Shown one piece after another: positions 2,919 through 56,313 of a DNA stretch of 61,833 bases. Positions within the stretch are counted from its first letter, which is position 1; every line of letters starts with the position of its first letter. Position numbers and translations under genes: made by a program. The notes under the pieces are model-generated. The model saw only the letters and a program-made list of their open reading frames with translations. It searched no databases and was not told the origin of the DNA. The DNA is from a virus (lineage: Duplodnaviria > Caudoviricetes), in IMG/VR virus record IMGVR_UViG_3300032086_000660, positions 1 to 61,833 of that record. One strand, written 5' to 3'.

Positions 2919-2927
2919 TTTTAATGG

Positions 2928-3356: not shown

Positions 3357-3556
3357 GTGAGCTTTACAACCTTGCTTGCATTAACGCACACAAGCTCTTG
3401 GACGAGTTGTACGAGCAAGTACATACTCCCGATGGAGACCCTCTGATTACACCAGACGAGGTAAAATCTGTACGCCAGAAATACTTGGCTAAAATCAGAC
3501 ACGAACTTGAGTTAATTCAAACAGCGAGCGATGAAGCAAACGAAACTATGCAGTAA
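3338..3556 (+). CDS. hypothetical protein
   Basis: Overlaps both neighbours in the operon. Confidence 0.55.
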   Translation: MEREKLSELYNLACINAHKLLDELYEQVHTPDGDPLITPDEVKSVRQKYLAKIRHELELIQTASDEANETMQ

Positions 3557-3878: not shown

Positions 3879-3925
3879 ATTTACATCAGATTTGTTACTT
3901 GGTTGTAACTGGTTTTGGTTAAACG

Positions 3926-3960
3926 GAAAGGGGGCTATTTGCCCCCTTTCTTTTTCTTCT
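3926..3960. terminator. Intrinsic terminator at the convergence of the early and late arms
   Basis: GAAAGGGGGC-TATTT-GCCCCCTTTC hairpin followed by a T-tract. Confidence 0.8.
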
Positions 3961-4033
3961 TAGTTTTCTTCTTGTCACAACAAGAGCCATCGCATTCGAC
4001 TGGTCTTGTCTTACACCATTTTTGTTTCTGCAT
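3935..4033 (-). CDS. Cys/Lys-rich microprotein (32 aa, MQKQKWCKTRPVECDGSCCDKKK..)
   Basis: Translated by hand; ATG lies 1 nt after the stop of the lipoprotein gene. Confidence 0.4.
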   Translation of the reverse strand: MQKQKWCKTRPVECDGSCCDKKKTKKKKKGGK

Positions 4034-4034
4034 A

Positions 4035-4457
4035 TTAGATGTGCTTATCAACGAACCTTTGTAACAACTTAACTCCAATAATCAGAGCTAAAAGATACAA
4101 AAGCCATCGTTGCAACATCTGCATAGGCTTCTCTTTTTCGACATAAACTATTTTTTCGTACGGAACTTCAATGGTCTTAACTATTGTATCCGAGTCGCAT
4201 TTCCCTTCTATAATAAGAGTGTCCAGACTCTTTACGATTCTGACGCTCAGCTTGTCCTTTTGGAGTATTATAGTATCGTGTTGCTTCAAAGTCACAGTAT
4301 CCGTGATAGCCACAGCTGGCACTACAACCGTGTCCTTCACAACCAGCGTGTCTCTTTCCATTATTGTAGGGTCTTTCTTCACCGCTTGGTTTAGATGCCA
4401 AGTGGCGCTGCAACTGCTTAACAAGCTTATCGTGATTAACTTTACCACCCATTTCAT
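4035..4457 (-). CDS. Lysis-cassette lipoprotein, candidate unimolecular spanin
   Basis: Signal peptide with lipobox LSSC, beta-rich DT repeats and a C-terminal transmembrane segment; next to the endolysin. Confidence 0.6.
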   Translation of the reverse strand: MKWVVKLITISLLSSCSATWHLNQAVKKDPTIMERDTLVVKDTVVVPAVAITDTVTLKQHDTIILQKDKLSVRIVKSLDTLIIEGKCDSDTIVKTIEVPYEKIVYVEKEKPMQMLQRWLLYLLALIIGVKLLQRFVDKHI

Positions 4458-4927
4458 ATCGTATCAAAGTCTGTGTAGGTGATGGTCACCTTCTCCCCCC
4501 TTTCAATAGCCTCAGAAATTGGAGGATAAATTCTTTTATAAGCATTAACTGACGACCCCACCATACCATTACTATCGCCAAAATTCGCTTGTTGACTATC
4601 ACCAACAAGGAGACACCCAGCAGTGTGCTCATCAGTATTACCAGTGTGAATAAGGATATACTCAAAGTTAGGTACATCCCATACCCATAACATCCCTTTG
4701 TGCATCTCCCCATACTTCTTTAGATATCTGCTATGGAATCCTCCGACTTTTCTGAGTACGAGGTCGTATGTTCCAGCGGGAACACGAGTCTCGCCAGCGA
4801 CTTTCTCCTCCCTATGCTCATCTTCAAGCGTGTAGCATAAGAACTTTCTTTCTCCCCCAGTAACATCGAATAGTATCCCATTGGTGCTGTCTTTCTGACT
4901 GCTGAAGCGCAATACTTCTAACTGCAT
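4454..4927 (-). CDS. Endolysin candidate (DUF5675 family, L,D-transpeptidase-like)
   Basis: CYTLED...TRVPAGTY...ILIHTGN...TAGCLLVG. Confidence 0.8.
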   Translation of the reverse strand: MQLEVLRFSSQKDSTNGILFDVTGGERKFLCYTLEDEHREEKVAGETRVPAGTYDLVLRKVGGFHSRYLKKYGEMHKGMLWVWDVPNFEYILIHTGNTDEHTAGCLLVGDSQQANFGDSNGMVGSSVNAYKRIYPPISEAIERGEKVTITYTDFDTI

Positions 4928-11100: not shown

Positions 11101-14100
11101 GTCATCGCTCGCCTCTACGATTTGCTCTGGAGACATATTGACCATATCGTTGTAGTTTCCTCCGAAACCAGACATCTCAGCCCCTTCAGCAAACCAGTCA
11201 AGGTATCTCGCCATATCTCTTGCCTTCATAAACGGCTTGAGAGGTTCTATAATCTGCTCATAAAGCTTCTGAGCCTCTTGAGTACCACCAAAGAAAGTTT
11301 GGAAGCTACCTCCAGTAGCCATCATCTCTCTGTGTTGCACCCAGTGCTGTAGTTCGTGAACAAGGTATGTTCTTACAGCTGAAGGTGTTTTTACTTGTAT
11401 CTCTATCGTGTTCTGAGAAGGACTGTACCAAGCTTCTGCTCTACCAGTTCCGTCTTCAGCTACATTGATGTCGATAACAATATCTTTTGACTCTGGGTAC
11501 ACCTCGAATAGCTCTGTTTCTATTACGTCAGACAGCTTAGCTCCTTTAATATTTGTTCCAGCTTGTAGCTCTGCTTTGATTGTAGGATACTCTATTTCGT
11601 ATCTCCACTTGCCGTCTGCACCTAAAGTCCAACCAAACGACTCTTGAAGTATTCTTTCAGTCTCTTCCTCAGACTTTACGTCTTTAATCATATCGTAGAA
11701 CTGCTTGGCTTGCTCTAACCTTCCAGAAATCTCTGGTCTTAGGTTTCCGCTTTCGCCAATAATCTGAGCCTTGTCGCCAGTCTCTTGACCTTTGTCCTTT
11801 CTCTTACGCAGTCTCTCGATGTCGTTAGGGTCGATTGGCTCGCCTTCTCTCATAGAAGCAGCGATGTCCTTCATAATCTGAACACCTTGAGTTCTTGAAG
11901 GAATAGGTACTTCAAACCCAAGAGCATCACCGATTACCTCAGCAATCTTTCTCAGAATACCTTTTTCAATCTGAATATCAAACTTGCCAGCAGCAAGCAT
12001 TGCAATGAACTCAGTAACACCTTCCTCAGAACGGTTTCCAGCTTCGTATCCAGCAATAAATCTTTGGATAGCAGAACCTACTGCCACACCCTCAATGCCA
12101 GACTGCTTAACCATCTTAGCAATCTCACCGAATAGAGCATCAAAAGACTTGTTTCCAAGCACCTCTCCGAATGCACCGTGTGTTGCTTCGTGGTATCCAG
12201 TAGTAGAAACCATAGCTGGAGCAAGGAAGTGAATCTCGTTTCCCTTCATAAAGTAACCACGAGTAAGTTTATCCAGTCCAGTTGCATCTTTAAATGCTTG
12301 TGCGCTCGTATGCACGAACACCTTTGCATCTGGTCTTACTGCTTTGATAGCCTTAACAGCGTTTTCAATAGACTGAAGACCTTTGATGGCAGCGTCTTTA
12401 GTTGTTTTAAAACCTTCAAATACTTGCTCACCAATTGTTTCAAAGTGATTGATGAGGTCAGCCAAAAAGCCTTCTTTGCCATCGTATTCAATAGTAGGCT
12501 GTAGCTTACCCTTCTCCATTTCAAATGGAACGTATAGCTCTTTACCACCAGCATCAGAAACCGCTTGTTCAACCTCAGCTTGATTCTCTGCATAGAAGCT
12601 TTCCTCTTCCATTGTAAGCGATTCTCCTTGCTTAATCTTTTGTGCAATAGAGATTGCCTCAGCAGACATATTTGAAGCGCTCTGAACAGATTGTAGACCC
12701 TTGTATTTTTCTTCGATAGCAAGCTTCTCTTGGAAGTCTGCTTTAATCTCTGCTCCAAGTGCTGACTTCGCAGCTCCTTCTGGCATAGAGTTCCACTGGT
12801 CTACCTTGCTTTGGAATGTATCAGCAATCTGCATCAACTTAGCGTGGTCTTCTGGAGACTCTTGTCTGATTCTTTCGAAGAACTCAGCGTTCTGCTTGTT
12901 ACGCATACCCTCTTTTGCGAGAGCTTTAGCAAGCTGAGCGCCTATAATTCCTTTTGTTTTCTTGTCTGCTGCGTTTTGATATTCCTCAGACAACTGCTTA
13001 ATCACAGCTCTTGAACGCAACTTGTCCATACCCAAACCAAGCTTACCAGCAATGTGTAGGTTCTGAACCTCGAATGGTGCACGAACCGCTGTTGTTGCAG
13101 TCTGCATACCGCCAGTCATAAGAACAGCAGAGTCAACAGCCTCCATTAACGGCTCTTTTAGTCTTTCCCAAGTAGCTCGTTTGCCTTGTGCTTCAAGCTC
13201 GTATTTAGTTTGAACGAGAGCTGTAGCAGCTTCGGCTGCCGCCTCCTCTGAAACAGATGTTCCATAAGAGTATGCAGTTGCCTTGATAAACTCACCGAAT
13301 GTCTTTTTAGCGGCTTCGCCAGAAATACCCTTTAGTGCTGGGGTAATCATTCTGTTAAAGATGTGCGCAGAAACGCTTTCACCAAGACCTTCTGCAAGAC
13401 CGTTTACCGTTGCAAGGGTAACACGCTGGGCTGGGCTCATTTCAGAGAACCAATCTTGACCCATTACAGACATATAGTAAGAAGAACCGCTTAAAGCCCC
13501 CATACCTACTGTCGATGTAGTCATTGCTGCGAGCGACTTGCTGCCAGAAATAGTTAAACCAGCTGCTCTTGAAGCGCCTTGAAAGTAACCAGCACCAACC
13601 ATATATGGTGCAGACTTAGCAAGAAGAGTTAGCGACTCGTTTACAAGTACAAGAGGGTTCTCATTTATGGTTTGGTTACGACCAGTTAGAGCTTCGCCTA
13701 AATCTACATCGCCCATAACTCGTTGACCTTCCTTACTTCTATAGTATTCGAGACCGTCACGAACCTTTTTTAGTGCGTGTGAAACATCAAATAAGTCGTC
13801 ATCTCCAGAGTATTGAAGTCTCTTGTCTATTCTGTCCCCAAGACCATCGAGCCCTTTCCCAAGCTCCTCTGTAGCCATAACAGTTGTTTCGAGAGCACCA
13901 GCTATAAGTGCTAATCCAGAAACAGCCATTTCGGCAAACGAAACAGCCGCAACATTTAGGCTACTATCTAATATGTTTTTGTTGTAGATTTTTCCATCAC
14001 CAGTGAGGTCAATAGACACATTACCCCAGTGCATAGTGTTTTCAACATCCTTCAAAAACTCCTCGTCATTGCGAAGGTTTTCTGGAAGGTTTTGCATCAA

Positions 14101-14868
14101 GTTGGTTTTGAAAATATCGTTGTATTCTCTTCCGTACTTCTCGTAGTATTTAGCACGGATTTTTTCTTTGCGTGCTTCTGGGTCATCAGTATCCAGTTGC
14201 TCTGGCATACCTCTACGCTTCTTCTCTTCTTGAACTGCCTCGTATGCAGCAGCTGCATTTTTAGAAGGTCTGTATCTCGATGGTTTAGATATCGATAAGA
14301 GAACACTCTTGTCTTTTACCTCATTCTTTAACTTTGTATGTTTCCAAGACTCAAAGTCATCAAGCACACCCAGTTCTTCAGCGATATCTTCGTCAGTCGT
14401 AGTCAGTGCCTCGTCATATGCCTTAACCTCTTTCTGATAGTCTTCATCATTATCAATGAGGTGGTCAAACAAGTCGTTAGGACTGTTTATCTCTAAGTCG
14501 GGAGCTTTGATGTTTTTATAGTCGTTAAACGAGCTATAGTTGATGAGGTCAATCTTCTCCTTTGGAAACTTCTCTGTAATAGAAGAATCCAAGCGTGAAG
14601 CTTCTGCCAGCAATTCTGATTCTGTAAGTTCTGGTGTTCTTTTTTTTTTACGTTCTGCGAGAATAACGTCAATGTCGTTATCAGAGAAGTTACGCATCTT
14701 CAAGATGTCTGCAATCTCTCTATCAGACTTGTTGCTCTTTACAGAAGCCTCGAGAATCTTGTCGTAGTCAGTTTTACTTATCTTACGAGATGTGTCGTAA
14801 GTAGGTTCTTCTTTCTTTACAATTTTTGCTTCCGTTTGATAAACGTACTTAGAATCGTTACCAGCCAT
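5197..14868 (-). CDS. Giant polyvalent virion/ejected protein (zincin HExxH modules, two LPD23-like modules, C-terminal LPD38-like region)
   Basis: HEATH, HELQH and HEVQH motifs; GWTLGADGKWRYEI and GWYRGMDNLWRSEI; C-terminal NPEF..NF.RD, TINFNRSG, LYLFFNASVQG and KIPLPYG. Confidence 0.8.
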   Translation of the reverse strand: MAGNDSKYVYQTEAKIVKKEEPTYDTSRKISKTDYDKILEASVKSNKSDREIADILKMRNFSDNDIDVILAERKKKRTPELTESELLAEASRLDSSITEKFPKEKIDLINYSSFNDYKNIKAPDLEINSPNDLFDHLIDNDEDYQKEVKAYDEALTTTDEDIAEELGVLDDFESWKHTKLKNEVKDKSVLLSISKPSRYRPSKNAAAAYEAVQEEKKRRGMPEQLDTDDPEARKEKIRAKYYEKYGREYNDIFKTNLMQNLPENLRNDEEFLKDVENTMHWGNVSIDLTGDGKIYNKNILDSSLNVAAVSFAEMAVSGLALIAGALETTVMATEELGKGLDGLGDRIDKRLQYSGDDDLFDVSHALKKVRDGLEYYRSKEGQRVMGDVDLGEALTGRNQTINENPLVLVNESLTLLAKSAPYMVGAGYFQGASRAAGLTISGSKSLAAMTTSTVGMGALSGSSYYMSVMGQDWFSEMSPAQRVTLATVNGLAEGLGESVSAHIFNRMITPALKGISGEAAKKTFGEFIKATAYSYGTSVSEEAAAEAATALVQTKYELEAQGKRATWERLKEPLMEAVDSAVLMTGGMQTATTAVRAPFEVQNLHIAGKLGLGMDKLRSRAVIKQLSEEYQNAADKKTKGIIGAQLAKALAKEGMRNKQNAEFFERIRQESPEDHAKLMQIADTFQSKVDQWNSMPEGAAKSALGAEIKADFQEKLAIEEKYKGLQSVQSASNMSAEAISIAQKIKQGESLTMEEESFYAENQAEVEQAVSDAGGKELYVPFEMEKGKLQPTIEYDGKEGFLADLINHFETIGEQVFEGFKTTKDAAIKGLQSIENAVKAIKAVRPDAKVFVHTSAQAFKDATGLDKLTRGYFMKGNEIHFLAPAMVSTTGYHEATHGAFGEVLGNKSFDALFGEIAKMVKQSGIEGVAVGSAIQRFIAGYEAGNRSEEGVTEFIAMLAAGKFDIQIEKGILRKIAEVIGDALGFEVPIPSRTQGVQIMKDIAASMREGEPIDPNDIERLRKRKDKGQETGDKAQIIGESGNLRPEISGRLEQAKQFYDMIKDVKSEEETERILQESFGWTLGADGKWRYEIEYPTIKAELQAGTNIKGAKLSDVIETELFEVYPESKDIVIDINVAEDGTGRAEAWYSPSQNTIEIQVKTPSAVRTYLVHELQHWVQHREMMATGGSFQTFFGGTQEAQKLYEQIIEPLKPFMKARDMARYLDWFAEGAEMSGFGGNYNDMVNMSPEQIVEASDDILDEEQAEELIEFLSNLDEDILNGMTENIEENGWWDYKGHQYMANAAFDYWDEVVRKSDSANGYQLYQRLAGEVESRNAETRSYYSVEQLRQKPLSTTEDVAREDQILVYPQIDITKQNFEDGSVAAQADESFISPEAGKAQVITGDAPTFSLQEALKQTEGRVLVITSDNTGIGEVDGKDVMGGIGYSFIEENLRDGVGFASVSQESVTKIKNMVQSIGNGKDVTVLIMQQAPDGMLGNFYAADYLAEAITETFKDDRKQAAAEIKERLMSLTPIKNSGELDLVEKFIDGIANGSKSEAVAEVVDKMSFPLRKAIVKSLLPKGYGKVKGVERINPNARVAVSLSKRMAEAGFSQVDFWRKYSSPETRTDEYIEGALNGDWGYTYSGFVTNPSLDWGESFQQNSGIAHPQFNAKLPSKQTFKLDGGYQVDKAFKDLLTFGYNQEKGMYTVPPFGLKQSTSQSIFAGSFQESTQEAVLDLVALPDTDPFNQYHKLSSTPEGKAQIIGEIGAMAGGRLEENLNLAREMEEAGKGREAIFFATGWYRGMDNLWRSEINYGFVKGSTLNILSDMYGENASLNPMLELITKKVKGRTKTVGIKMKLEDFLENKALYRMYPSLKEYSFIIEKFSNPLLQGEHNSYSKEISVSWDNFFEKTELGIKPIRKKKGTFGGDFTELMNTVYHEVQHAVQHIEQFDEGYNTGRISGDARYSGTRSRRSAEAQLKTANNLTEKILEIERNGDFIGSLKELWRIVTNEDFENVDWALNDLYDFNMSSLSEFIESRGDIVDAVKNSDGVTWLTSRAPYSSSLRKAVITANLESRDQVNTEVLEELRSKMKDFAERNKDFISLLYAVEAMQKDKTMKGTKWMLETLNADSLNYFKEVARNVAQGAALNVKRFTEKMTGGRASDYQVYQGKLGEAEARFVGQRGTQKVKNRTPAFHELYPDVSRDEIWMSPPAYAFKRLAKIEAKRKAIERANKALDNLSLDPMERADMEAENQKNIDKVSEEIKILLNKMNDKSQKGKAQLIEGTQEYDLFKKEFQEELIRNGVENFVETQGGAYRLFEHLRFKFADKYQPLQNLQKSIEKAQGRVLRSDANFRRAEALMHGKAAEDARQFEEQKLKPLMDKMIEYGVTNEQISEYLYALHARERNEFVKNTIDPANEAGSGMTNEVADAIIKKYEGDKARMDELADMVYEITEASRKMMLDFGLINKAQYDSFGMFENYVPLVGTAVTPTSDLFDFTDTRSSQDMSRGGGIAIFGKEYRQVSGRFSEAQSPLETVISNHLRTISRGRKNEVLQVLLEMVQQNKDAKAWEVFTEENPDMRVRVASRGESIFIEEATGEEYEYELRRRMAGVAMAGNNDYVPVKVKGKTFYIKFNDKRITRTLNDGGVAKTNMLVKALSKASRHFTRVFTSWNPEFIFANFTRDIQTAMYNQMAEQDMELSNISGQDFVLESLRNVPNAIKGVFQYEKGNREGMDSETKAFYEEYLKSGAKTDWFLLKSAEEIEKEMLKYIEKTKPITDEASLRDKARAVGVKGTASLSEVAKFVDVANTSIENGIRFGAYIAARKNGVPADQAAEFVKELTINFNRSGELGAVANSLYLFFNASVQGSTRLLRSVVKSKKAQKVAGGMMAFSALLTMMNIAVGGEDEDGIPMYNKIPEYERERFLIIMYGSERGNYFKIPLPYGVSMFFNMGTALSETAFGVSTPAESASFLLNGIVGSFSPISLSKSSDLGGSLLKSATPTVLKPIVELQLNENFFGSPIYKKDFYYSADTPDSQRPTKHAAEWAKTMAVFLNKATGGSDYEKGMVDLSPDTIEYLFTFLSGGTGKFINRTMDTGQKLYKGKAGDIEFNDVPLARQFLGTVRESEAAGRYYETRREILKQKNKAIGALKSGEPMTAEMKQLNRLLNLDKQVQSKVKKLAEAEKRAERIEDPVKRQELLDKLHDKKIAIYQQFNGYYYKMKQK

Positions 14869-49803: not shown

Positions 49804-50417
49804 TACTTGCTGTATGTTTTATCGTACGCAGTCATACTCTCACGGAAGCTATCGTAGTTCGTTGTAGAACCTCCAGCGTGGTGGTAGTTGCCCCAGAATT
49901 GTTCTGTAGAAATCTTTCCATCCTTCCAAGCACCGAGATTGGCTTTAGGATGTTGTAGGTAGTTACCGATGAATAGCGTTCTCTGCTGGTCACCAGTTAG
50001 TTTAGATGCATCCAGTGATTTCTCCTTGTATGCTTCTTGCAACCACTTAGGGATTTCCATACCACTGTCCTTGAACTCTTTGTATGTTCTGTTCACTGCG
50101 GTGATACCACCAGCGGCATCTCCAGCCTCCATCATAAACAGTCCTCTGCCCACTCCTTGTGGCACGAGTTCTCCCTTATCGTTTTTGATTAACTGGATAG
50201 CATTCTCTTTCATTCTCTGCTGTGCTCCAGTTTCGTGGAATGCAATACGATTCATCAAGTCTTCGTACTGCTTAGATGTTCCTCCCTTAACGTCAAGTAG
50301 GTGTTTCATCATTGCCGAGTAACCACTCTTGGGTGGGTCTGTTGGCTTTGACTGAATCATACCCCCTTCATCGAAGAAGAGCGTGTACTTTTGTTTACCC
50401 TTGCGTTTTGCTATCAT
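49803..50417 (-). CDS. Lysozyme-fold-like protein (tentative)
   Basis: IAFHETG...GRGLFMME pattern resembles lytic transglycosylase cores. Confidence 0.4.
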   Translation of the reverse strand: MIAKRKGKQKYTLFFDEGGMIQSKPTDPPKSGYSAMMKHLLDVKGGTSKQYEDLMNRIAFHETGAQQRMKENAIQLIKNDKGELVPQGVGRGLFMMEAGDAAGGITAVNRTYKEFKDSGMEIPKWLQEAYKEKSLDASKLTGDQQRTLFIGNYLQHPKANLGAWKDGKISTEQFWGNYHHAGGSTTNYDSFRESMTAYDKTYSK

Positions 50418-50601
50418 CCTTTCTTCTTATGCAGTCCTTCGACTTCTCACAGATACAGAGCTCGTCCGTACCACAACCAAAGTTGTCTGGTACATTACGA
50501 CTGTAACCGATTAAGTCTAAGACTGTTACGGGAACAAAGATAATCAATATTAGGATAAAAATAGTGGTGAGCATATTAGGTACAGTTTGGGTACAGTGCA
50601 T
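50395..50601 (-). CDS. Small membrane protein with Cys-rich tail
   Basis: Hydrophobic segment followed by CGTDELCICEKSKDC; start uncertain. Confidence 0.45.
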   Translation of the reverse strand: MHCTQTVPNMLTTIFILILIIFVPVTVLDLIGYSRNVPDNFGCGTDELCICEKSKDCIRRKDDSKTQG

Positions 50602-50738
50602 CGCAATACAACTCTTTGTGTGTGCGTTACAACTCTACTTTCAATGAAAAACATCTTGTGCGGGTCTAACGTTCAGACTGGTTAACCGCTTTCATTTCAC
50701 ATTCGTTCAAACGCTTAAACCCATCGTTGATTGCATAG

Positions 50739-50746
50739 CAAAGGTA
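50739..50746 (-). promoter_or_regulatory. First late-arm promoter -7 box
   Basis: TACCTTTG on the minus strand. Confidence 0.55.
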
Positions 50747-51241
50747 CAACATATTTATGACAAAATCAAGTGTCTACTTTGATACTGATTACGTGTTGAT
50801 GGTACAAAAAGCACCACATATATAGAGAGGTACGAAAATGCATAACATATATAGGGGTGAGTAATATAGAGGGTGGGGATTATAATACATATAGCACGCA
50901 CGCAGACACATACCGAAACGCAACCCAAGACCCTACCCCCCATCGATTGGCTGAGCGCCTACAGATATTTCAGCGTTTGCCCACAGCGCACAGACATTCT
51001 ATGTATTACAGCTATGTTGATAGTGAGATAGTACATAGACTATGTATGCAATCAATCCACTACAGATAGCTCAGTTGATTTGTGAGCGCAGTTCGTTACA
51101 GAGTGAGCACAATACCCCCCAATGAATTTATAACAGCATCACAGCGCCTCAATGGGGTACGCATTATATCTATATATAGCTACCCGTCTTATTTAGATTG
51201 GTTCTAAATTAACATCAAATGTGAAATATTTTACCACAGCG

Positions 51242-51302
51242 CTTGTGGAAACAAAATAATTGCGTATCTATGCAATGTCGAAAGCGACAAACGTTCTTTG
51301 AA
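51242..51302 (+). promoter_or_regulatory. Early promoter followed by a boxB-like hairpin and boxA-like element
   Basis: TATCTATG (51265-51272, one mismatch to TAnnTTTG); hairpin TGTCG-AAAG-CGACA (51276-51289); GTTCTTTGAA (51293-51302). Confidence 0.6.
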
Positions 51303-51318
51303 TCTGCACTTGCAACAA

Positions 51319-52010
51319 TCACTACAGCGCCTCCGCTGACTGCCGTACTTGTGGGCATTAAACACTCGAATCAATGTCAGCAACAGCGCACCAATGTAGT
51401 GAGCGGAAACGAGTCAGAGCACGAGCATCTTGAAATACGGATGCAAACTGCGGATAGGCGGTACATATGGTAACTGCCTTGATGAGCTAACTTTAAGTGG
51501 TGTAAACTTGGAAGCGGAGCTACAGCGGAAACCAAATGTACCTATGGGGCATTCGGACTTAGGCTGTAGGGACTTCGGTCAGATGTGAAAGAGGTGTAAT
51601 CATTGATAGCAATAAGCGAGGAGTGAGAGTAGTACAAGAATCCATCAAAGCGACAATGGTCACAGCGACAGCTGTAGTCCACTTGGGGTTTTGGAGAGGG
51701 TAAGAGATAGCCATAGGATGTCTCTGAGAGTATTCAACTACTTTGGGTTTTGGAGAGCAGTATAAACACATCAACAGCGGAGCATCGAGAATGCTCAGAG
51801 CTACATCAAACATCTGATTAGGGCGCTCAATTGGGAGCGCTTAGAATCTGTATCACAATGGCTGAATTTGTTATGAGATTGGGAGCGCACAAACAGAGCA
51901 TTTGCTCGGGTGCTTAATACATCAATTGCATAGGAGGTCGTGGTACGGCAATAATCGTTTGGTATATCTCAGACATCTTGCCTAATTGGAGGCGCAATGC
52001 TGTTGTAGTG
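51319..52010 (+). ncRNA. Candidate large structured non-coding RNA (about 690 nt)
   Basis: No credible ORF; several perfect long-range complements close the ends; C(UUCG)G and other hairpins inside. Confidence 0.6.
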
Positions 52011-52013
52011 TTA

Positions 52014-52069
52014 GCCCTAATTGGTTTGCTTTAAATGGAAGGTACGCAGTTCGATTCTGTGTTAGGGCA
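52014..52069 (+). ncRNA. tRNA-like element lacking the anticodon arm
   Basis: 7-bp acceptor GCCCTAA/TTAGGGC; T-stem CGCAG/CTGTG; loop TTCGATT. Confidence 0.6.
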
Positions 52070-52120
52070 CAAATGCTGAGTGACATCAGCACTTTTTTAT
52101 TAACCAAAATTTTATCAATT

Positions 52121-53686
52121 ATGTCACAAGTTAGAAACATCATCACCAACAGAATGATTAACAGCGAGAATGCTCGTATGTCTAATCTAATGGGAGGTTA
52201 CATTCACGTTAATGTAGCTGAGCAAATTGTCGAATCAGTACGAGTAGATGCTGATTCTGTTTACGATGCAATCCGTACAGAGTATGATTGGGTTTCTCGT
52301 GATTACAGAGATTCTCAGTGCATCAAATTGCTATTGGTAGTCCTTGCAAACGGAGGTCGTGTTCGCACTCTCAATGCTTGGGCATCGCCTAACATCAACT
52401 TAGATGGTCTAAACTTCTTCCACATTGGAACAACAAAAGTTTACACTAACCTACATTGCAATGGTACAGATTGTCCGCCGGATTTTCTCAAGCAAGTATC
52501 TATACTCGAGTACGGAAATCCTAACGGCAATCCTACCGGCATTCTTACTTACAAGCAGTTTACTGCGATGAGCAACAGACCAAGCGCTGTGAATTTACCA
52601 TCAGCAGTTCTGAGAGAGGTGCGCCAAGAGATGGTATGTCCTTATGTAATCGAAAGCGGATGGCTCAGAGATAAGTTATTCTCTCGCAATATGACCATCA
52701 ATGGTACAGACAGAAGAATAAACTTTATGTATGGTTCTGATTCTCATACAGCATACGAGTCTTGGAGGTCAGCGCAGTACAACAACAACAATGGTCGCAT
52801 CTTCGGGTATCACGGAAGCGGTAATTTCCGCTCGCAGTTCGATGCTCAGATGGAAGATGGTAAATGGTATTTCGGTATCGAGGCTGAGAAGCAAGATTCT
52901 GATGCCAAAGCATATGCTGATTACCTAAGCGGTAAATGTGGTCAATGGGGCGCTGAGAGAGATGGTTCACTTGGTCGTGGTGGTGCTGAGTTTATCTCGC
53001 CAATCCTACCATTACACAATGGGTCATTTGTTCGTAAGAATTTCCAACAGCATCGTTGGATGCTCGATGCGAAATTGGATGACAATGGCAATGCGAATCG
53101 TACATCTTGCGGAGGTCATATGACCATCAGCAAAAAGGGTATGAGCGGTCGTGAATTGCTCACGCACTTGCATCACTTTGTGCCTTTGTTCTACAGCCTA
53201 TACATCGGGCGCTTGAACACTAACTACGGAGGCGCTGTTGCAAAGGGCGATGTTGCTCATACACGCAGAGCATTCAACTTGAAATCGTTCGGTGTTGAAA
53301 TTCGTATCTTCAGCGGTGTTCCATCAATGGAAGGCGCTTGGTGGAGAGTTCAACTTCTGCAAGTTATCGCTGATATGATTGACAGCGGAGAGGTTCAATC
53401 GTACAAGGATGTTGCTAACGCACTCGTTACAGACAAGCATCCACTACGCAAGGTTATGCGTAAGCAGTACGATAGCAAGCGCATTCGTGACAAGTTCGCA
53501 CTTGTGCTCGCATTCGGTCATATGTACGAGAACAATGGTTCTTCAAGCATTGACATCAGCAATACATCAGATGATGTAAAGCATAAGAGTGACAGAGTAA
53601 TCAGAGCATTCAATCAGTTCAGAGATGTGCGTTCGTGTACTCAGCGCTTGTGGGGTGTTGACAGCATCACTACAACAGAGGCATAA
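52121..53686 (+). CDS. Putative amidoligase (COOH-NH2 ligase, Amidoligase_2-like)
   Basis: FGIEAE, ERDGSL, AEFISP, SCGGHM and VEIRIF motifs. Start moved to MSQVRN. Confidence 0.75.
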   Translation: MSQVRNIITNRMINSENARMSNLMGGYIHVNVAEQIVESVRVDADSVYDAIRTEYDWVSRDYRDSQCIKLLLVVLANGGRVRTLNAWASPNINLDGLNFFHIGTTKVYTNLHCNGTDCPPDFLKQVSILEYGNPNGNPTGILTYKQFTAMSNRPSAVNLPSAVLREVRQEMVCPYVIESGWLRDKLFSRNMTINGTDRRINFMYGSDSHTAYESWRSAQYNNNNGRIFGYHGSGNFRSQFDAQMEDGKWYFGIEAEKQDSDAKAYADYLSGKCGQWGAERDGSLGRGGAEFISPILPLHNGSFVRKNFQQHRWMLDAKLDDNGNANRTSCGGHMTISKKGMSGRELLTHLHHFVPLFYSLYIGRLNTNYGGAVAKGDVAHTRRAFNLKSFGVEIRIFSGVPSMEGAWWRVQLLQVIADMIDSGEVQSYKDVANALVTDKHPLRKVMRKQYDSKRIRDKFALVLAFGHMYENNGSSSIDISNTSDDVKHKSDRVIRAFNQFRDVRSCTQRLWGVDSITTTEA

Positions 53687-53693
53687 GCCTACA

Positions 53694-53735
53694 GAGGGGT
53701 AATGGTTAATGCGGGTTCGATTCCCGCACCTTTCC
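53694..53735 (+). ncRNA. Minimal tRNA-like element (acceptor stem, D-like loop, T-arm)
   Basis: GAGGGGT/ACCTTTC acceptor with two G-U pairs; linker AATGGTTAAT; GCGGG-TTCGATT-CCCGC. Confidence 0.55.
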
Positions 53736-53781
53736 TATTCAATCATTCACTTGTTTCGTGGATATTTTTGGTTAATGATTG

Positions 53782-53817
53782 TGGGCGCTCGGGGTTTCTC
53801 GGGCGCTCATTTTTTTC
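53782..53817 (+). terminator. Intrinsic terminator
   Basis: TGGGCGCTCGGGG-TT-TCTCGGGCGCTCA-type hairpin followed by T7. Confidence 0.7.
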
Positions 53818-53874
53818 ACCATTCCACTATCAACGGAACAAACACACACGCACTAATCCTTAAAAATTATAGAT

Positions 53875-54180
53875 ATGGATATTCTACAACAACTGAGGTT
53901 TCAAGTTTTCAACCTCACGAAAAACGGAGAGCACGACTACGATGCAATCAAAACTATGACGACTAAGCAAGGTAAAAAGACTACAAAAATTGCTCAGTTA
54001 ATTATGCTCAAGAAAGTTCACGATTTGAACGATGAGCTACAACAAGCCAGAATCGAACACTTCGATACAGAGGAGGAGATAAGCAGTCTAATCAAAGCTA
54101 TGATTGATACTTGCTATGTCCTACAGAAGAAGGAAGGATACAAGGATGTAGCTTGGAGCTACACAAGGACGCTCGGATAA
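53875..54180 (+). CDS. hypothetical early protein
   Basis: AT-rich leader, in-operon ORF. Confidence 0.6.
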   Translation: MDILQQLRFQVFNLTKNGEHDYDAIKTMTTKQGKKTTKIAQLIMLKKVHDLNDELQQARIEHFDTEEEISSLIKAMIDTCYVLQKKEGYKDVAWSYTRTLG

Positions 54181-54198
54181 TAACTAAATACCAACGAT

Positions 54199-54495
54199 AT
54201 GAAGGTTTACAAAATCTACAAAGCAAACGGAGAGATGCACTCATCGTTTGACAACAAGCAAGAAGCGATTGACTTCTTGGAGTACGGAGCATCAATGGAG
54301 TTCTCAGAAGAAGGATTCTATATGGAGGAACATCTCGCTTGCCGATGCGGTAACGAGGAGAGCACAGAAACACGATTCGATGCCTACGGGATAACAACGG
54401 GAGATTGGTGCGATGAATGTTACAACGGGAGCAACTATCCGTACAGAAAAGACAAGTATCACGACTACTTGTATGCGGGAGAAAGACTATACTAA
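54199..54495 (+). CDS. hypothetical protein with a possible Zn site
   Basis: CRCG...WCDEC. Confidence 0.6.
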   Translation: MKVYKIYKANGEMHSSFDNKQEAIDFLEYGASMEFSEEGFYMEEHLACRCGNEESTETRFDAYGITTGDWCDECYNGSNYPYRKDKYHDYLYAGERLY

Positions 54496-54511
54496 TTTAA
54501 CACCAAAAGCA

Positions 54512-54769
54512 ATGAGAAAATCAAGAATCAGAATCAGCATCGTTTACTTGGACATCACTTGCGGTCATACTCTGTACAAGATATGGCTGTACAACGATGA
54601 TATGGAAACGAGAGAGAAACTAAGTAAAGCTCAGTTCTTTGCTTTATTCGGTATCACACTACCAAAACACTACAGCTACGAGGCGCTTGACTCTGTAGCG
54701 GAGCTAATCCAAGACGAGTGGAACGGATTGGTGAAAATCAAGCACGATGACTGCATGGACATCAGCTAA
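54512..54769 (+). CDS. hypothetical early protein
   Basis: Start moved to MRKSRI after the upstream stop. Confidence 0.55.
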   Translation: MRKSRIRISIVYLDITCGHTLYKIWLYNDDMETREKLSKAQFFALFGITLPKHYSYEALDSVAELIQDEWNGLVKIKHDDCMDIS

Positions 54770-54803
54770 TTCCACAAAATCAGAATGTTTTTTCTGAATT
54801 AAA

Positions 54804-54835
54804 TTTGCACAACTAATCTGAATAGTGTATCTTTG
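54804..54835 (+). promoter_or_regulatory. Consensus Bacteroidota housekeeping promoter
   Basis: TTTG (54804-54807), 20-nt spacer, TATCTTTG (54828-54835). Confidence 0.8.
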
Positions 54836-54892
54836 CACTATGTTTAACCAACACCGATGTCTGCGATGGGATATAACAGCAGTCCAACCATT

Positions 54893-55663
54893 ATGTGTTT
54901 GCTAATCGTAAATCAAACAAATCTTATTTCAAAGAAACATCTCAAGAATGCTTGGGAGAACAATTCACACGGAGGTGGTATGGCGTACCCATTCATCAAC
55001 GAGTACAACGAGCGATGTGTATTCATCGAAAAATTCAACGATTTCGAATCATTCTACGCTGAGTACGAGAGTGTACGCAAGATGATTGACAAGCCAATGA
55101 TTCTGCACTTCCGCATCTCATCGAGTGGTGGTCGTAGCGAGGAGAACATTCATCCATTCTATGTTCGCAAGGACAAGATGGCTATGGGTCACAACGGAAC
55201 AATCCGTACGCTTGGAGATGAAACGATGTCTGACTCTCGCCATTTGGCGCAAATCATCGGGACATTCAAGGGCAACTCTACGGCTATGCTGAATCACAGC
55301 GGTCTGCGACAGCTTATCTACGCAGTAATCGGTCAGAGCAAACTCGCATTCGTAGATGCTCAAGGTCAGTTCGCAATCTTCAACGAGCACTTAGGTCATT
55401 GGACTGCTAACGGAGATTGGATGTCTAACGACTCTTACAAGGCTGTGCGCAATTGGGTGTATCAAGGCAACAAGAAGGTCGCAAAGACTTCGCTGTCTAA
55501 TCACACAGCAAAGGCAAAGACAACGACTCAAACCTACAACAAGTACAAGGCTGACTACAAGAAGGCTGAACCAACTCGTGACTTGTTCAAGGATTGGGAC
55601 AAAGACTTGGAGAAACAAGAAGAGCAATTCGACTTGGAAACTAACAAGTGGGTTAAAATATAA
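54893..55663 (+). CDS. Class II glutamine amidotransferase (Ntn hydrolase)
   Basis: Start moved so that Cys2 is the N-terminal nucleophile (MCLLI); NSHGGG, HFRISS, HPF, HNG and SDS motifs. Confidence 0.85.
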   Translation: MCLLIVNQTNLISKKHLKNAWENNSHGGGMAYPFINEYNERCVFIEKFNDFESFYAEYESVRKMIDKPMILHFRISSSGGRSEENIHPFYVRKDKMAMGHNGTIRTLGDETMSDSRHLAQIIGTFKGNSTAMLNHSGLRQLIYAVIGQSKLAFVDAQGQFAIFNEHLGHWTANGDWMSNDSYKAVRNWVYQGNKKVAKTSLSNHTAKAKTTTQTYNKYKADYKKAEPTRDLFKDWDKDLEKQEEQFDLETNKWVKI

Positions 55664-55735
55664 TTGGTGGTTGGTTAGGTTGGGGGCACGGCTGTGGTGG
55701 CTGTGCTCCCTTATCAACTTCTAAATTCAAATCAA

Positions 55736-55891
55736 ATGACTTTACACGAACAAAAACTTTACGATAGACTCGTTGAACTCAGCGAGGATATGCTGTCATA
55801 CGGAGAGATGATGGACAATGCTTACATCCGATTGAAATCAGCGGAGATTGAAGCAGTAACAAGAGAACTAATCAAAACAAGAGGACTATGA
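55736..55891 (+). CDS. hypothetical protein
   Basis: Start moved to MTLHEQ; ATGA coupling to the next gene. Confidence 0.5.
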   Translation: MTLHEQKLYDRLVELSEDMLSYGEMMDNAYIRLKSAEIEAVTRELIKTRGL

Positions 55892-56313
55892 GAAAACAAA
55901 TCTTTGAAACCAATCAACTCGTAGCGGTGTACGGAACGCTGAAACGAGGATACGGCAATCATAGGTTGCTGAGCAACGCTACCTTTTTGGGCAGCGGTAC
56001 TACGAAAGACAAGTACAGATTGTGCGTAAGCGGTCTTCCTTATATGCTAAAAGGCGTAAGTGAGGAAGGTCACAATGTCGAGGTTGAGGTGTACGACTGC
56101 AATCCGTTTGAGATGTACAACTTAGACTTGCTTGAAGGTCATCCACGATTCTACAAGAGAGAGAAGGTGGATGTTGTTGTGGGAGAAAAAACAATGTCAG
56201 CTTGGGTGTACTTTGTGCCCGATAGCATCCACTACAACAACGGAACTTATGTGGATTCGTACAGAGGTGCGAACTACAATGAGGTGTTAGAACAAATCGA
56301 AACTCAATACTAA
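55888..56313 (+). CDS. Gamma-glutamylcyclotransferase (GGCT/AIG2-like)
   Basis: VAVYGTLKRGYGNH...LDLLEGHP..YKR...AWVY. Confidence 0.9.
   Translation: MRKQIFETNQLVAVYGTLKRGYGNHRLLSNATFLGSGTTKDKYRLCVSGLPYMLKGVSEEGHNVEVEVYDCNPFEMYNLDLLEGHPRFYKREKVDVVVGEKTMSAWVYFVPDSIHYNNGTYVDSYRGANYNEVLEQIETQY

What the first reader, a model, noticed from the sequence alone, without database searches (positions are those of the whole stretch)
51319..52010. Candidate giant structured non-coding RNA as the first early transcript
Seen: about 850 nt without a credible ORF between an early promoter and the amidoligase gene, in an otherwise tightly packed genome. The two ends are complementary: CACTACA 51320-26 with TGTAGTG 52004-10, GCGCCTCC 51327-34 with GGAGGCGC 51988-95, and TGCCGTAC 51341-48 with GTACGGCA 51943-50. 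Internal long-range pairs include TCAGATGT 51579-86 with ACATCTGA 51810-17 and CCTATGG 51541-47 with CCATAGG 51711-17. Local hairpins include GAC-TTCG-GTC 51571-80, GAGCAT-CGAGA-ATGCTC 51780-96 and GGCGCTC/GAGCGCT 51822-41. Known: GOLLD and ROOL are large ornate phage-associated RNAs of similar size, often next to tRNAs. Inference: this is a member of such a class or a new Bacteroidota-phage class.
Basis: partly seen in the sequence, partly recalled or inferred. Interest (0 to 1): 0.9.

Follow-up and report, generated by a model that had tools for sequence, protein, structure and literature searches.

The report
Large phage RNA with tRNA-like tail
A marine phage of the Bacteroidota-infecting kind and its relatives carry a conserved non-coding RNA of about 710 bases that folds into three domains and ends in a small tRNA-like module; it belongs to no described RNA family and its job is unknown.

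Summary
The finding is real, but the proposed fold is wrong. The window is a whole 61.8-kb phage record. Its 1.7-kb gene-free gap sits between the late genes (minus strand) and the early/replication genes (plus strand). In that gap, ~51303-52069 (+) is conserved in five further distinct metagenomic relatives. It has no conserved ORF. Among close relatives all indels are 1-2 nt.

An RNAalifold consensus has 208 pairs, 83 of them covarying, against 43±5 in 80 column shuffles. Consensus energy is z = -7.9, against -2.4 for a coding control. Paired cells hold 174 G·U but only 24 A·C, so the RNA is on the plus strand.

The fold has three separately closed domains, then a 56-nt tRNA-like minihelix (acceptor stem, D-like hairpin, canonical T arm, no anticodon arm), then a terminator. 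A second minihelix follows the next gene.

The five long-range ones, including the end-to-end closure, are not kept in the divergent relatives.

Rfam gives no GOLLD, ROOL, tmRNA, intron or RNase P match. My best reading is a new family of large phage RNA, cut from its co-transcript at the tRNA-like module. Its function is unknown. Only six distinct sequences were available.

The parts
51232..51302 (+). Conserved upstream block, the candidate promoter region. It has a TTG/ATG at about 51268-51270, then the invariant GTTMTTTGAA at 51293-51302 about 20 nt later. It also holds two sequence-conserved hairpins, CCACA/TGTGG and TGTCG-AAAG-CGACA.
   Evidence: The block is nearly invariant in 6 of 6 relatives. 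Its hairpins show no compensatory change (pairs 3-17 and 46-59). This fits a DNA-level signal. The geometry resembles the Bacteroidota -33/-7 promoter (consensus recalled), but the TA of the -7 box is replaced by GT. Its role is inferred, not shown.
51303..51418 (+). Domain I. Helices: 51303-12/51410-18, 51316-26/51395-406, 51327-30/51386-89, 51335-40/51376-81, 51341-44/51354-57.
   Evidence: RNAalifold consensus. On alignment A4 (Domain I plus the next hairpin): 37 pairs, 86.9% of cells paired, 14 pairs changed on both sides against 5.2±1.8 in shuffles (0 of 500) and 2-6 when the partner is slid.
51425..51444 (+). Inter-domain hairpin GCAUCU-loop-GGAUGC.
   Evidence: 7 pairs, 100% of cells paired, 4 with compensatory change. 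In L012 the stem is GGUAU/AUACC (helix 6).
51447..51761 (+). Domain II. It is closed by 51447-51/51757-61 and 51452-55/51640-43. Internal helices include 51456-62/51473-79, 51496-501/51599-604, 51520-26/51563-69, 51646-51/51747-52 and 51703-12/51716-25.
   Evidence: On alignment A6: 71 pairs, 88.5% of cells paired, 30 pairs changed on both sides against 12.9±2.6 (0 of 500) and 4-9 when slid. This is the part where L011 and L012 are hardest to align, so the detailed helices are the least certain.
51765..52012 (+). Domain III. Closing helix 51765-69/52008-12 plus 51772-83/51994-52005. Long helix 51787-811/51957-79. Hairpin 51816-28/51835-48 with loop AAUUGG. Branch 51849-56/51940-47 with sub-helices. 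Hairpin 51980-83/51990-93, also with loop AAUUGG.
   Evidence: On alignment A5 (Domain III plus the tRNA-like module): 99 pairs, 94.9% of cells paired, 36 pairs changed on both sides against 11.9±2.7 (0 of 500) and 3-7 when slid. L011 lacks the inner branch (about 100 nt) but keeps the closing helix and both AAUNGG hairpins.
52014..52069 (+). tRNA-like minihelix TLS1. Acceptor stem 52014-20/52062-68. Linker UUGGUUU. D-like hairpin 52028-32/52039-43 with loop AAAUGG. T arm 52045-49/52057-61 with loop UUCGAUU (52050-56). Discriminator A at 52069. No anticodon arm and no encoded CCA.
   Evidence: In A5, helices 12-14: acceptor 6 pairs with 4 compensatory, D-like stem 5 with 2, T stem 6 with 4. 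Model R1 scores 66-88 bits on the 6 training sequences, which is by construction. ARAGORN does not call it a tRNA. The only Rfam hit is SpF41, 26.6 bits against a gathering score of 52.
52074..52101 (+). Terminator-like hairpin TGCTGA-GTGACA-TCAGCA followed by CTTTTTTATT, 20 nt before the start codon at 52121.
   Evidence: Found by the terminator scan. L001/L005, L011 and L012 have a hairpin of different sequence at this place. L008 has none here; it carries a small ORF straight after TLS1.
53694..53734 (+). Second tRNA-like minihelix TLS2, directly after the 521-aa gene. It has a 6-bp acceptor stem, a linker AAUGGUUAAU and a T arm GCGGG-UUCGAUU-CCCGC. It belongs to the same processing scheme.
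   Evidence: Present in 6 of 6 relatives with 6/6 acceptor pairs and 5/5 T-stem pairs. Compensatory change occurs at 9 of 11 pairs. The 5' strand was chosen as the best upstream 6-mer, which favours pairing. R1 hits L012 and L014 at 25.1 bits, E 8e-4.
53785..53816 (+). Terminator-like hairpin GCGCTCG-loop-CGGGCGC plus T7, downstream of TLS2.
   Evidence: Read from the sequence. A homologous GC-rich hairpin plus T-run is seen in the relatives. It was not scanned with the terminator tool.

Best explanation
This is a new family of large structured non-coding RNA in a clade of marine podophages related to phages of Flavobacteriia. A promoter just upstream of about 51303 drives rightward transcription at the head of the early/replication block. 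The first ~710 nt (51303-52013) fold into three separately closed domains joined by a short hairpin. Directly behind sits a 56-nt tRNA-like minihelix with a 12-bp acceptor/T-arm stack, a canonical T loop and a D-loop-like hairpin.

Inferred mechanism: the RNA is co-transcribed with the downstream genes. The host's tRNA-maturation enzymes then cut it free, RNase P at the 5' side of the minihelix and RNase Z or another nuclease at the 3' side. This would work like tRNA 'punctuation'. A second minihelix after the first protein gene would do the same for that mRNA. The released RNA would then act in trans as a stable folded particle, serving as a scaffold or decoy for host or phage factors early in infection.

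Shown: conservation, absence of coding, strand, secondary structure with covariation, and the tRNA-like modules. Inferred: the transcript ends, the cleavage, action in trans, and any function.
For: Conservation. A homologous block lies upstream of the same gene in all 10 metagenome and viral loci that reach far enough upstream. These give 5 further distinct sequences, 81-82% and 53-55% identical to the window.

Non-coding:
- Every one of the six frames in all 6 sequences has 7-19 stops.
- Stop-free stretches of 60 or more codons lie at different alignment places in different relatives.
- All 33 indels against the three close relatives are 1-2 nt.
- Substitutions show no 3-base periodicity.

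Structure:
- RNAalifold consensus energy is -247.9 against -181.7±8.4 in 80 column shuffles (z -7.9).
- 83 pairs covary against 43.2±5.0 (maximum 53).
- A coding control from the same six loci gives z -2.4 and 20 covarying pairs against 22.6.
- The count of structure pairs on three tool-made alignments finds 36, 14 and 30 pairs changed on both sides. Shuffles give 11.9, 5.2 and 12.9 (0 of 500 each). Slid partners give 2-9.

Strand. Paired cells hold 174 G·U/U·G against 24 A·C/C·A. The minus-strand consensus is only -193.0.

Modular fold. L011 has lost an inner branch of Domain III but keeps the closing helix.

tRNA-like modules. TLS1 and TLS2 have covarying acceptor and T stems and an invariant UUCGAUU-type loop with a G-C closing pair.

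Co-transcription. Only 20 nt separate the terminator's T-run from the ATG at 52121. In L008 a small ORF starts about 25 nt after TLS1 with no hairpin between them.

Presence in RNA libraries. Contigs from 3 RNA-library runs of 2 studies lie on the RNA. X18 has a 772-nt contig on 51340-52078, plus 34 unaligned 5' letters that read as the homologue of 51306-39. X19 has a 3684-nt contig bridging 51220-52183 and running on into the gene. X20 has a 159-nt contig on 51405-51532.

Precedent. In Cellulophaga phage phi14:2, long intergenic regions at the early end are transcribed above most genes and stay abundant. Their function is unknown (10.1101/2020.03.07.982082, passages read).
Against: - Only 6 distinct sequences, about 4-5 lineages, were available. 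Most compensatory changes come from L011 and L012, whose Domain II alignment is uncertain.
- The structure was derived from the same sequences it was then tested on.
- No R-scape test was possible.
- No 5' or 3' end is mapped. Contigs cannot show ends.
- The RNA-library runs may contain DNA. In X18 and X19 the flanking genes, late ones included, are covered at similar word depth. Expression is therefore not shown, and high abundance is not indicated.
- RNase P or RNase Z cleavage is untested.
- The hairpin plus T-run at 52074-52101 could end most transcripts. The downstream gene would then need a promoter that I did not find.
- The -7-like box lacks the consensus TA.
- No function can be read from the sequence.
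- The family was not found in cultured relatives.
Confidence: 0.6

Rival explanations
1. The RNA is a cis-acting leader. The whole structured region would be the 5' untranslated leader of the first early operon. It would control read-through of the terminator at 52074-52101, or mRNA stability, rather than acting as a separate RNA.
For: There is no room for a promoter between the terminator and the ATG at 52121. The terminator-like hairpin sits exactly between the RNA and the gene. The RNA is always upstream of the same gene family in the loci that hold it. The X19 contig bridges the RNA and the gene.
Against: A leader of about 770 nt with three closed domains and more than 200 pairs is far larger than known attenuators. 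A complete tRNA-like minihelix lies between it and the gene, and a second one follows the gene; this points to cutting rather than sensing. In L008 and L012 other small ORFs are inserted between the RNA and the 521-aa gene, so the link to that gene is loose. There is no match to the Rfam T-box or any riboswitch at E <= 10.
Confidence: 0.2
2. One reading: one giant RNA closed by pairing of its two ends (51320-34 with 51988-52010), belonging to GOLLD or ROOL.
For: The pairings are perfect in the window, and the window's own minimum-energy fold uses them. It is a large phage-borne RNA with a tRNA-like neighbour, as is often reported for GOLLD and ROOL (recalled; listing and abstract of PMC12286853 seen).
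Against: There is no compensatory change in 15 columns, and 8 of the 15 are broken in at least one relative. The arm 51994-52012 pairs with 51765-83 instead: 10 pairs with 5 compensatory, plus 5 invariant pairs (helices 1-2). No GOLLD or ROOL match appears in Rfam 15 at the gathering score over the whole window, or at E <= 10 over 50400-52300.
Confidence: 0.04
3. It is a divergent or rearranged tmRNA, with a tRNA-like part plus an mRNA-like, pseudoknotted part. The related-host phage phi14:2 carries a tmRNA in its early gene-free region.
For: phi14:2 has a tmRNA at 4031-4500 of NC_021806 (ARAGORN; Rfam 46 bits, E 2.6e-16), in the same kind of place. The present RNA also combines a large structured part with an acceptor/T-arm module.
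Against: ARAGORN finds no tmRNA in the window. No Rfam tmRNA family, permuted ones included, matches at E <= 10. TLS1 is closed locally by its own two acceptor strands, so the large RNA is a 5' extension and not an insert between them. TLS1 has C3-G70, not the G3·U70 alanine identity pair (pair identity recalled; sequence). No conserved reading frame exists.
Confidence: 0.03
4. It is a DNA-level element rather than an RNA: a replication origin, packaging site, or array of protein-binding sites at the divergent-promoter region.
For: The block lies in the only long gene-free region, between divergent gene blocks. The flanking parts 50600-51300 contain sequence-conserved blocks without covariation. 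ACAGCG occurs 9 times on one strand in 50983-52161.
Against: Helices are kept through G·U pairs that would be A·C on the other strand: 174 against 24. The consensus energy is strand-asymmetric. There is covariation in 80 of 207 pairs. A canonical T loop is present. The ACAGCG enrichment is not conserved: relatives have 0-4 copies.
Confidence: 0.04

Closest known systems
GOLLD and ROOL (large ornate bacterial and phage RNAs)
   Same: It is a non-coding RNA over 500 nt with many covarying helices arranged in separately closed domains. It is phage-borne, sits beside tRNA-like sequence, and has no known function. GOLLD, ROOL and OLE form RNA-only homo-oligomers (abstract of PMC12286853, seen in the search listing).
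   Different: No sequence or structure match to either Rfam model. It has a different host group and habitat: marine Flavobacteriia-type podophages. The tRNA-like module is a truncated minihelix fused to the RNA's 3' end, not a neighbouring tRNA gene. Oligomer formation is untested.
Early long non-coding RNAs of Cellulophaga crAss-like phage phi14:2
   Same: Both are long gene-free stretches at the head of the rightward early genes of a phage of marine Flavobacteriia. In phi14:2 they are transcribed above most genes from the earliest time point and stay abundant (10.1101/2020.03.07.982082, passages read). That region also carries tRNA-related RNA, namely a tmRNA.
   Different: There is no detectable sequence similarity. 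nhmmer with the 6-sequence profile gives no hit. The best blastn match is 31 nt at E 0.13, in the upstream DNA and not in the RNA. The TLS model's best hit there is 9.6 bits, E 0.52. The present phage is about 62 kb, not 100 kb, and its giant protein lacks the DFDxD motif.
tRNA-like 3'-end processing modules: MALAT1/mascRNA in mammals, t-elements in plant mitochondria (recalled, no paper read here)
   Same: A tRNA-like fold lies directly 3' of a long non-coding RNA or mRNA. In those systems it is cut by RNase P and RNase Z to make the mature ends. Here TLS1 and TLS2 have the 12-bp acceptor/T stack and T loop that these enzymes recognise.
   Different: This one is bacterial and phage-borne. Cleavage is not shown. 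The modules lack the anticodon arm, and TLS2 also lacks the D-like hairpin.
tmRNA
   Same: An acceptor stem plus T arm without an anticodon arm, joined to a large structured RNA. Phage-encoded examples exist.
   Different: The topology differs: the module is closed on its own. There is no tag frame, no G3·U70, and no ARAGORN or Rfam match.

Membership tests
GOLLD RNA | Match to the family's covariance model (consensus sequence and structure) | tested here: not met
   No match at the gathering score in the whole window. No match at E <= 10 in 50400-52300 on either strand.
ROOL RNA | Match to the family's covariance model | tested here: not met
   Same searches, no match.
Large ornate RNAs as a kind (not a homologous family) | Over 500 nt, non-coding, with many conserved helices supported by covariation | tested here: met
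   About 767 nt. 207 pairs on three alignments, 80 of them with change on both sides, against 30 expected from shuffles. Non-coding.
Large ornate RNAs as a kind | Self-assembly into RNA-only oligomers | not testable with these tools
   Needs SEC-MALS, native gels or cryo-EM of the transcript.
tRNA | Cloverleaf with an anticodon arm; recognised by tRNA finders | tested here: not met
   ARAGORN finds 0 genes in the window. There is no Rfam tRNA match at E <= 10. Only 24 nt lie between the acceptor and T stems, forming a single 5-bp hairpin.
tRNA-like minihelix / t-element | Acceptor stem stacked on a T arm (about 12 bp) with a canonical T loop, kept by covariation | tested here: met
   TLS1 has 7+5 bp and loop UUCGAUU, with 4 of 6 acceptor pairs and 4 of 6 T pairs compensatory. 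TLS2 has 6+5 bp, with 9 of 11 pairs compensatory.
tRNA-like minihelix / t-element | Cleavage by RNase P and RNase Z in vivo or in vitro | not testable with these tools
   The runs were held as contigs only, and these cannot show ends.
tmRNA | tRNA-like domain formed by the 5' and 3' ends around a tag reading frame; ARAGORN or Rfam match | tested here: not met
   As a positive control, the same tools find the phi14:2 tmRNA.
SpF41 sRNA (Rfam) | Score at or above the gathering score of 52 bits | tested here: not met
   26.6 bits, E 0.18, on 52012-52101. The match reflects a shared acceptor/T-arm plus terminator layout only.
Self-splicing introns, RNase P RNA, riboswitches, T-box | Match to an Rfam model | tested here: not met
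   None of 4227 families matches at E <= 10, apart from chance-level snoRNA hits.
Intrinsic terminator | GC-containing hairpin followed by a T-run | tested here: met
   52074-52091 with 6 pairs, then CTTTTTTATT. The scan found 2 such sites against 1.3±1.2 in shuffles, so the scan alone is weak evidence.

The most novel reading that the evidence does not exclude
The RNA is a new class of GOLLD/ROOL-like ornate RNA that is excised from the first early transcript by tRNA-style punctuation. It then self-assembles, or assembles with the freed tRNA-like pieces, into a higher-order RNA particle. The three recurring D-loop-like hairpin loops (AAUUGG twice, AAAUGG once) would dock onto T loops. The particle would serve host take-over or counter-defence. 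Abundant, stable early non-coding RNAs, as in phi14:2, would then be a general trait of phages of marine Flavobacteriia.
Probability: 0.12. Interest if true: 0.9.

Novelty: new variant of a known kind. Interest (0 to 1): 0.72.

Why it matters
Few bacterial or phage RNAs longer than 500 nt have conserved ornate folds, and none of them has a known biochemical function. A further, unrelated class would widen that set to a new host group. This one comes from environmental phages of marine Bacteroidota, and its domain architecture is already supported by covariation, so it would give structural and functional work a fresh target.

The fused tRNA-like minihelices are of interest in their own right. 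If host RNase P and RNase Z cut there, these phages use tRNA punctuation to process early transcripts. To my knowledge that has not been described for phages. My four literature searches for it found nothing, but they cover open-access text only.

The side observation on phi14:2 may matter too. One of its unexplained abundant early RNAs appears to be a tmRNA. This suggests that stable-RNA cassettes at the leading end of the genome could be a recurring strategy in these phages.

Tried and rejected
More homologues. I tried:
- blastn (distant mode) of 50400-52150 against 50,697 phage records: no match.
- Five DNA-pattern scans and two protein-based scans of viral contigs. These found only the one relative contig already known, plus L020, where the RNA side runs off the contig end.
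- One genome-contig scan: a single 22-nt hit in a Thiodictyon MAG (L016), with no further similarity. I take it as chance.

Cultured relatives. TLS model R1 gave nothing below E 0.5 in Flavobacterium phage elemoA (42 kb of it), in MW202828 (10 kb) or in phi14:2 (9 kb). nhmmer with the RNA profile gave no hit.

Motifs:
- ACAGCG occurs 9 times on the + strand in the window, but relatives have only 0-4 copies. I dropped it as a family feature.
- TCCACTATCAAC, seen after the second terminator, is not enriched in the window: 61 matches at 3 or fewer mismatches against 57.6 expected.
- ACGTTMTTTGAAWCT is unique in the window, so it is not a repeated promoter.
- The sigma-70 consensus scan found 5 sites against 5.2 expected.

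Virion RNA polymerase idea. The 3223-aa protein has no DFDxD motif, and its PHROG matches have unknown function. I therefore make no claim about which polymerase makes the RNA.

Neighbour gene. There is no Pfam match for the window's protein at E <= 0.01. None of the 19 family members matches an amidoligase family at E <= 1. There is no PHROG match and no PDB relative. 'Amidoligase' stays unverified. The genes downstream do match a glutamine amidotransferase domain weakly and a gamma-glutamyl cyclotransferase.

Read laying:
- The X18 contig stops at 52078 with no loose end, while a DNA contig of X13 runs on. This is one run only, so it is no evidence of a 3' end.
- Bins without cover in X18 and X20 prove nothing.
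- Depth does not rank the RNA above its neighbours.

Supplements are closed, so the 10,006 candidate structured RNAs from IMG/VR in PMC10690425 (passages read) could include part of this element and I could not check. I found no paper describing this RNA.
Full report
SETTING. The window is a complete IMG/VR virus record of 61,833 bp. Structural and packaging genes lie on the minus strand from about 4035 to 50417: terminase, portal, tail fibre and a 3223-aa protein. The plus-strand block from 52121 runs over the record's end to about 4000. It holds an Erf-like annealing protein, an exonuclease and a primase/helicase. The two blocks diverge from a single 1.7-kb gene-free gap, 50418-52120.

The terminase is closest to an uncultured podophage, MW202828 (48% identity). 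More distant matches are Flavobacterium (39%), Cellulophaga, Tenacibaculum and crAss-like phages; there are 119 matching records, all under 60% identity. A Bacteroidota host is therefore likely, but inferred. Sequencing runs that hold the stretch are mostly from seawater, marine or aquatic samples.

THE OBSERVATION. However, 7-mer and 8-mer complementarities are common in 692 nt. Shuffles give 14.2±5.1 and 3.4±2.3 such pairs, against 27 and 6 observed. The single-sequence folding energy is only moderately better than shuffles: z -2.5 to -3.2, and similar on both strands. The window alone could not settle the matter.

HOMOLOGUES. The neighbouring 521-aa protein has 18 close relatives in the large protein collection (49-93% identity), plus one distant hit. 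Scans of IMG/VR and JGI metagenome contigs returned 12 loci. In every locus that reaches upstream of the gene (10 of 12), the non-coding block is present. This gives six distinct sequences:
- the window
- L001 (same as L007, nearly the same as L006)
- L005 (nearly the same as L009)
- L008 (same as L013)
- L011 (same as L015)
- L012

Identity to the window is 81-82% for the close set and 53-55% for L011 and L012. The conserved block starts near 51232 and ends at 52069. The sequence between 50990 and 51230 is far less conserved.

NOT CODING. Every one of the six frames in all six sequences has 7-19 stops. Stop-free runs of 60 or more codons sit at different alignment positions in different relatives. 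All 33 indels between the window and the three close relatives are 1 or 2 nt. Substitutions show no three-base periodicity.

STRUCTURE. I aligned the six sequences segment by segment between shared anchors and ran RNAalifold. The consensus has 208 pairs, 87% of cells paired, and 83 pairs in which both sides change while pairing is kept.
- Eighty column shuffles that keep gap pattern and column diversity give an energy of -181.7±8.4 (minimum -204.4) against -247.9 observed. They give 43.2±5.0 covarying pairs (maximum 53). Both differences are z about 7.9.
- The reverse-complement alignment gives only -193.0.
- The same procedure on the last 780 nt of the neighbouring gene from the same six loci gives z -2.4 for energy, and 20 covarying pairs against 22.6. 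The signal is therefore not a by-product of conservation.

I then mapped the structure onto three alignments made independently by the alignment tool and counted pairs:
- Domain III plus the tRNA-like module: 99 pairs, 94.9% of cells paired, 36 pairs with change on both sides against 11.9±2.7 in shuffles. Slid partners give 3-7.
- Domain I plus the hairpin: 37 pairs, 86.9% paired, 14 against 5.2±1.8. Slid partners give 2-6.
- Domain II: 71 pairs, 88.5% paired, 30 against 12.9±2.6. Slid partners give 4-9.

In all three, 0 of 500 shuffles reached the observed count. Among paired cells there are 174 G·U/U·G but only 24 A·C/C·A, which puts the RNA on the plus strand.

Caveats: there are only six sequences, the structure was derived from them, and L011 and L012 are hard to align in Domain II.

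ARCHITECTURE (window coordinates):
- Domain I: 51303-51418.
- A hairpin: 51425-51444. Its stem is rewritten in L012 (GCAUC/GAUGC becomes GGUAU/AUACC).
- Domain II: 51447-51761.
- Domain III: 51765-52012.

Domain III is closed by 51765-69/52008-12 and 51772-83/51994-52005. L012 and L011 keep this helix with different letters. L011 has lost an inner branch of about 100 nt yet keeps the closing helix and both small hairpins. The 3' arm he paired with 51320-34 belongs to this local helix, and his five long-range pairs show 0-1 compensatory columns and break in the divergent relatives.

Two hairpins in Domain III carry the loop AAUUGG, and the hairpin in the tRNA-like module carries AAAUGG. By eye they resemble tRNA D loops. 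I could not test whether that means anything.

THE tRNA-LIKE MODULES. Directly after Domain III comes a 56-nt element, 52014-52069. It has:
- a 7-bp acceptor stem
- a linker with invariant UGGU
- a 5-bp hairpin
- a 5-bp T stem with the loop UUCGAUU closed by G-C
- an unpaired A or G after the acceptor stem

Acceptor and T stems covary strongly (helices 12-14). There is no anticodon arm. ARAGORN does not call it. Rfam's only hit is a sub-threshold match to SpF41, an sRNA with the same acceptor/T-arm plus terminator layout (26.6 bits against 52).

A covariance model of the element led to a second, shorter module right after the 521-aa gene, at 53694-53734 in the window. It has a 6-bp acceptor, a linker AAUGGUU and the same T arm. 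It is present in all six relatives with every pair formed and compensatory change at 9 of 11 pairs. Both modules are followed by hairpin plus T-run terminators.

The acceptor/T stack of about 12 bp with a T loop is what RNase P, RNase Z and the CCA-adding enzyme recognise in tRNA precursors (established knowledge, recalled). I therefore infer that these modules are cutting signals.

The terminator's T-run ends 20 nt before the ATG at 52121. In L008 a small ORF begins about 25 nt after the module with no hairpin between them. The RNA and the downstream genes are therefore probably made as one transcript, at least in part, and then separated.

TRANSCRIPT START. The 70 nt before 51303 are almost invariant, but their two hairpins do not covary. 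That fits DNA-level signals. An invariant GTTMTTTGAA (51293-51302), preceded about 20 nt upstream by TTG (ATG in the window and in L011), resembles the Bacteroidota -33/-7 promoter layout (consensus recalled), apart from the missing TA. That would place the start near 51306, which is also where the first helix begins. This is an inference only. The sigma-70 scan is uninformative.

EXPRESSION. Only contigs, not raw reads, were available. Contigs of relatives in three RNA-library runs from two studies lie on the RNA:
- X18: a 772-nt contig on 51340-52078, plus 34 unaligned 5' letters that read as the homologue of 51306-39.
- X19: a 3684-nt contig that bridges the RNA and the downstream genes.
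- X20: a 159-nt contig on 51405-51532.

In X18 and X19 the flanking genes are covered at similar depth, and such libraries can hold DNA. This shows presence in RNA libraries, not proven transcription, and gives no ends.

COMPARISON WITH WHAT IS KNOWN. Rfam 15 has no match at gathering scores in the whole window. No GOLLD, ROOL, OLE, tmRNA, intron, RNase P, T-box or riboswitch match appears at E <= 10 in 50400-52300. I found no paper describing this RNA. The IMG/VR-based catalogue of 10,006 candidate structured RNAs (PMC10690425, passages read) lists its motifs in supplements that I could not open.

The nearest biological precedent is Cellulophaga crAss-like phage phi14:2. There, two long intergenic regions at the early end are transcribed above most genes from the first time point and stay abundant, with function unknown (preprint 10.1101/2020.03.07.982082, passages read). 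I looked at that region (NC_021806 2905-4601). It shares no detectable similarity with the present RNA. ARAGORN and Rfam both find a tmRNA at 4031-4500; this is a side finding.

Flavobacterium phage elemoA and MW202828 lack the RNA and the modules.

VERDICT. A real, conserved, plus-strand structured RNA of about 710 nt with a fused tRNA-like module is well supported. I put the existence of the structured RNA at about 0.9. The processing-by-punctuation and trans-acting reading is my preferred mechanism, at about 0.6 including the parts that are shown. The cis-leader reading is the main rival, at 0.2. It is not GOLLD, ROOL or tmRNA. It is best filed as a new class within the known kind 'large ornate phage-associated RNAs', with an unusual built-in tRNA-like excision signal.

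Noticed in passing
window 53694-53734 (+), terminator 53785-53816: A second tRNA-like minihelix (acceptor plus T arm, no D-like hairpin) lies directly after the 521-aa gene. It is conserved with compensatory changes in all six relatives, and a terminator-like hairpin follows about 50 nt later. ARAGORN does not call it.
   Followed up: yes
L019 (NC_021806.1, Cellulophaga phage phi14:2) 4031-4500 (+); gene-free region 2905-4601: ARAGORN calls a tmRNA (tag GSSVQKLAMVA*) and Rfam tmRNA scores 46 bits against a gathering score of 47 (E 2.6e-16). It lies inside the early intergenic region whose abundant, stable 'long non-coding RNAs' were reported as of unknown function. The record's feature table for this stretch lists no RNA gene. 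The other part, about 2905-3589, remains unexplained.
   Followed up: partly
window 50600-50990: The rest of the gene-free gap holds blocks conserved in all six relatives, for example TTGATTRCRTAGCAAAGKTACAA at 50725-50747 and GTGGGGATTATAATAC near 50872. On the minus strand the first block reads as a Bacteroidota-type promoter, TTG-20 nt-TACCTTTG (read by eye, consensus recalled). RNA-library contigs of X18 and X19 also lie on 50579-50884.
   Followed up: partly
window 50983-52161 (+): ACAGCG occurs 9 times on the plus strand within 1.2 kb and 0 times on the minus strand there, against 18 plus-strand copies in the other 60 kb. Relatives have only 0-4 copies, so this is a trait of this genome and not of the family. 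Unexplained.
   Followed up: yes
window 51065-51112 (+): A degenerate tRNA-like remnant lies upstream of the RNA. It has a D-arm-like GCTCAGTTGATTTGTGAGC and a T-arm-like CGCAGTTCGTTACAGAG, 76% identical over 21 nt to the T arm of TLS1. The TLS model scores it 10.8 bits, E 1.8.
   Followed up: partly
L008 2700-3000; L012 2740-3000: In two relatives a small extra ORF sits between the tRNA-like module and the 521-aa gene. In L008 it is followed by a second T-arm-like hairpin GGGCAG-TTCGATT-CTGCCC (2903-2952, 22.3 bits, E 0.004) and only then by the terminator. The space after the module seems to be an insertion hot spot.
   Followed up: partly
window 51681-51698 and 51740-51757: An 18-nt direct repeat, ACTTGGGGTTTTGGAGAG / ACTTTGGGTTTTGGAGAG (94% identical), lies inside Domain II. 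The G/U-rich runs are conserved in the close relatives.
   Followed up: no
window 5197-14868 (-): The 3223-aa protein matches only PHROGs of unknown function, over its last ~900 residues, and has no DFDxD motif. It cannot be called a crAss-type virion RNA polymerase on this evidence.
   Followed up: partly
window 52121-56313 (+): The early block encodes the 521-aa protein with no Pfam, PHROG or PDB match. Also present are a protein with a weak glutamine-amidotransferase domain match (54857-55663) and a gamma-glutamyl cyclotransferase (55888-56313).
   Followed up: partly
window 51021-51051 vs L019 3065-3095: A 31-nt stretch upstream of the RNA (GATAGTACAT...TATGCAA) is 81% identical to a stretch at the start of the phi14:2 non-coding region (E 0.13, not significant). 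A (C/G)TATGCAAT motif occurs three times in the window's gap: 51043-52 and 51267-76 on the plus strand, and 50726-35 on the minus strand.
   Followed up: no
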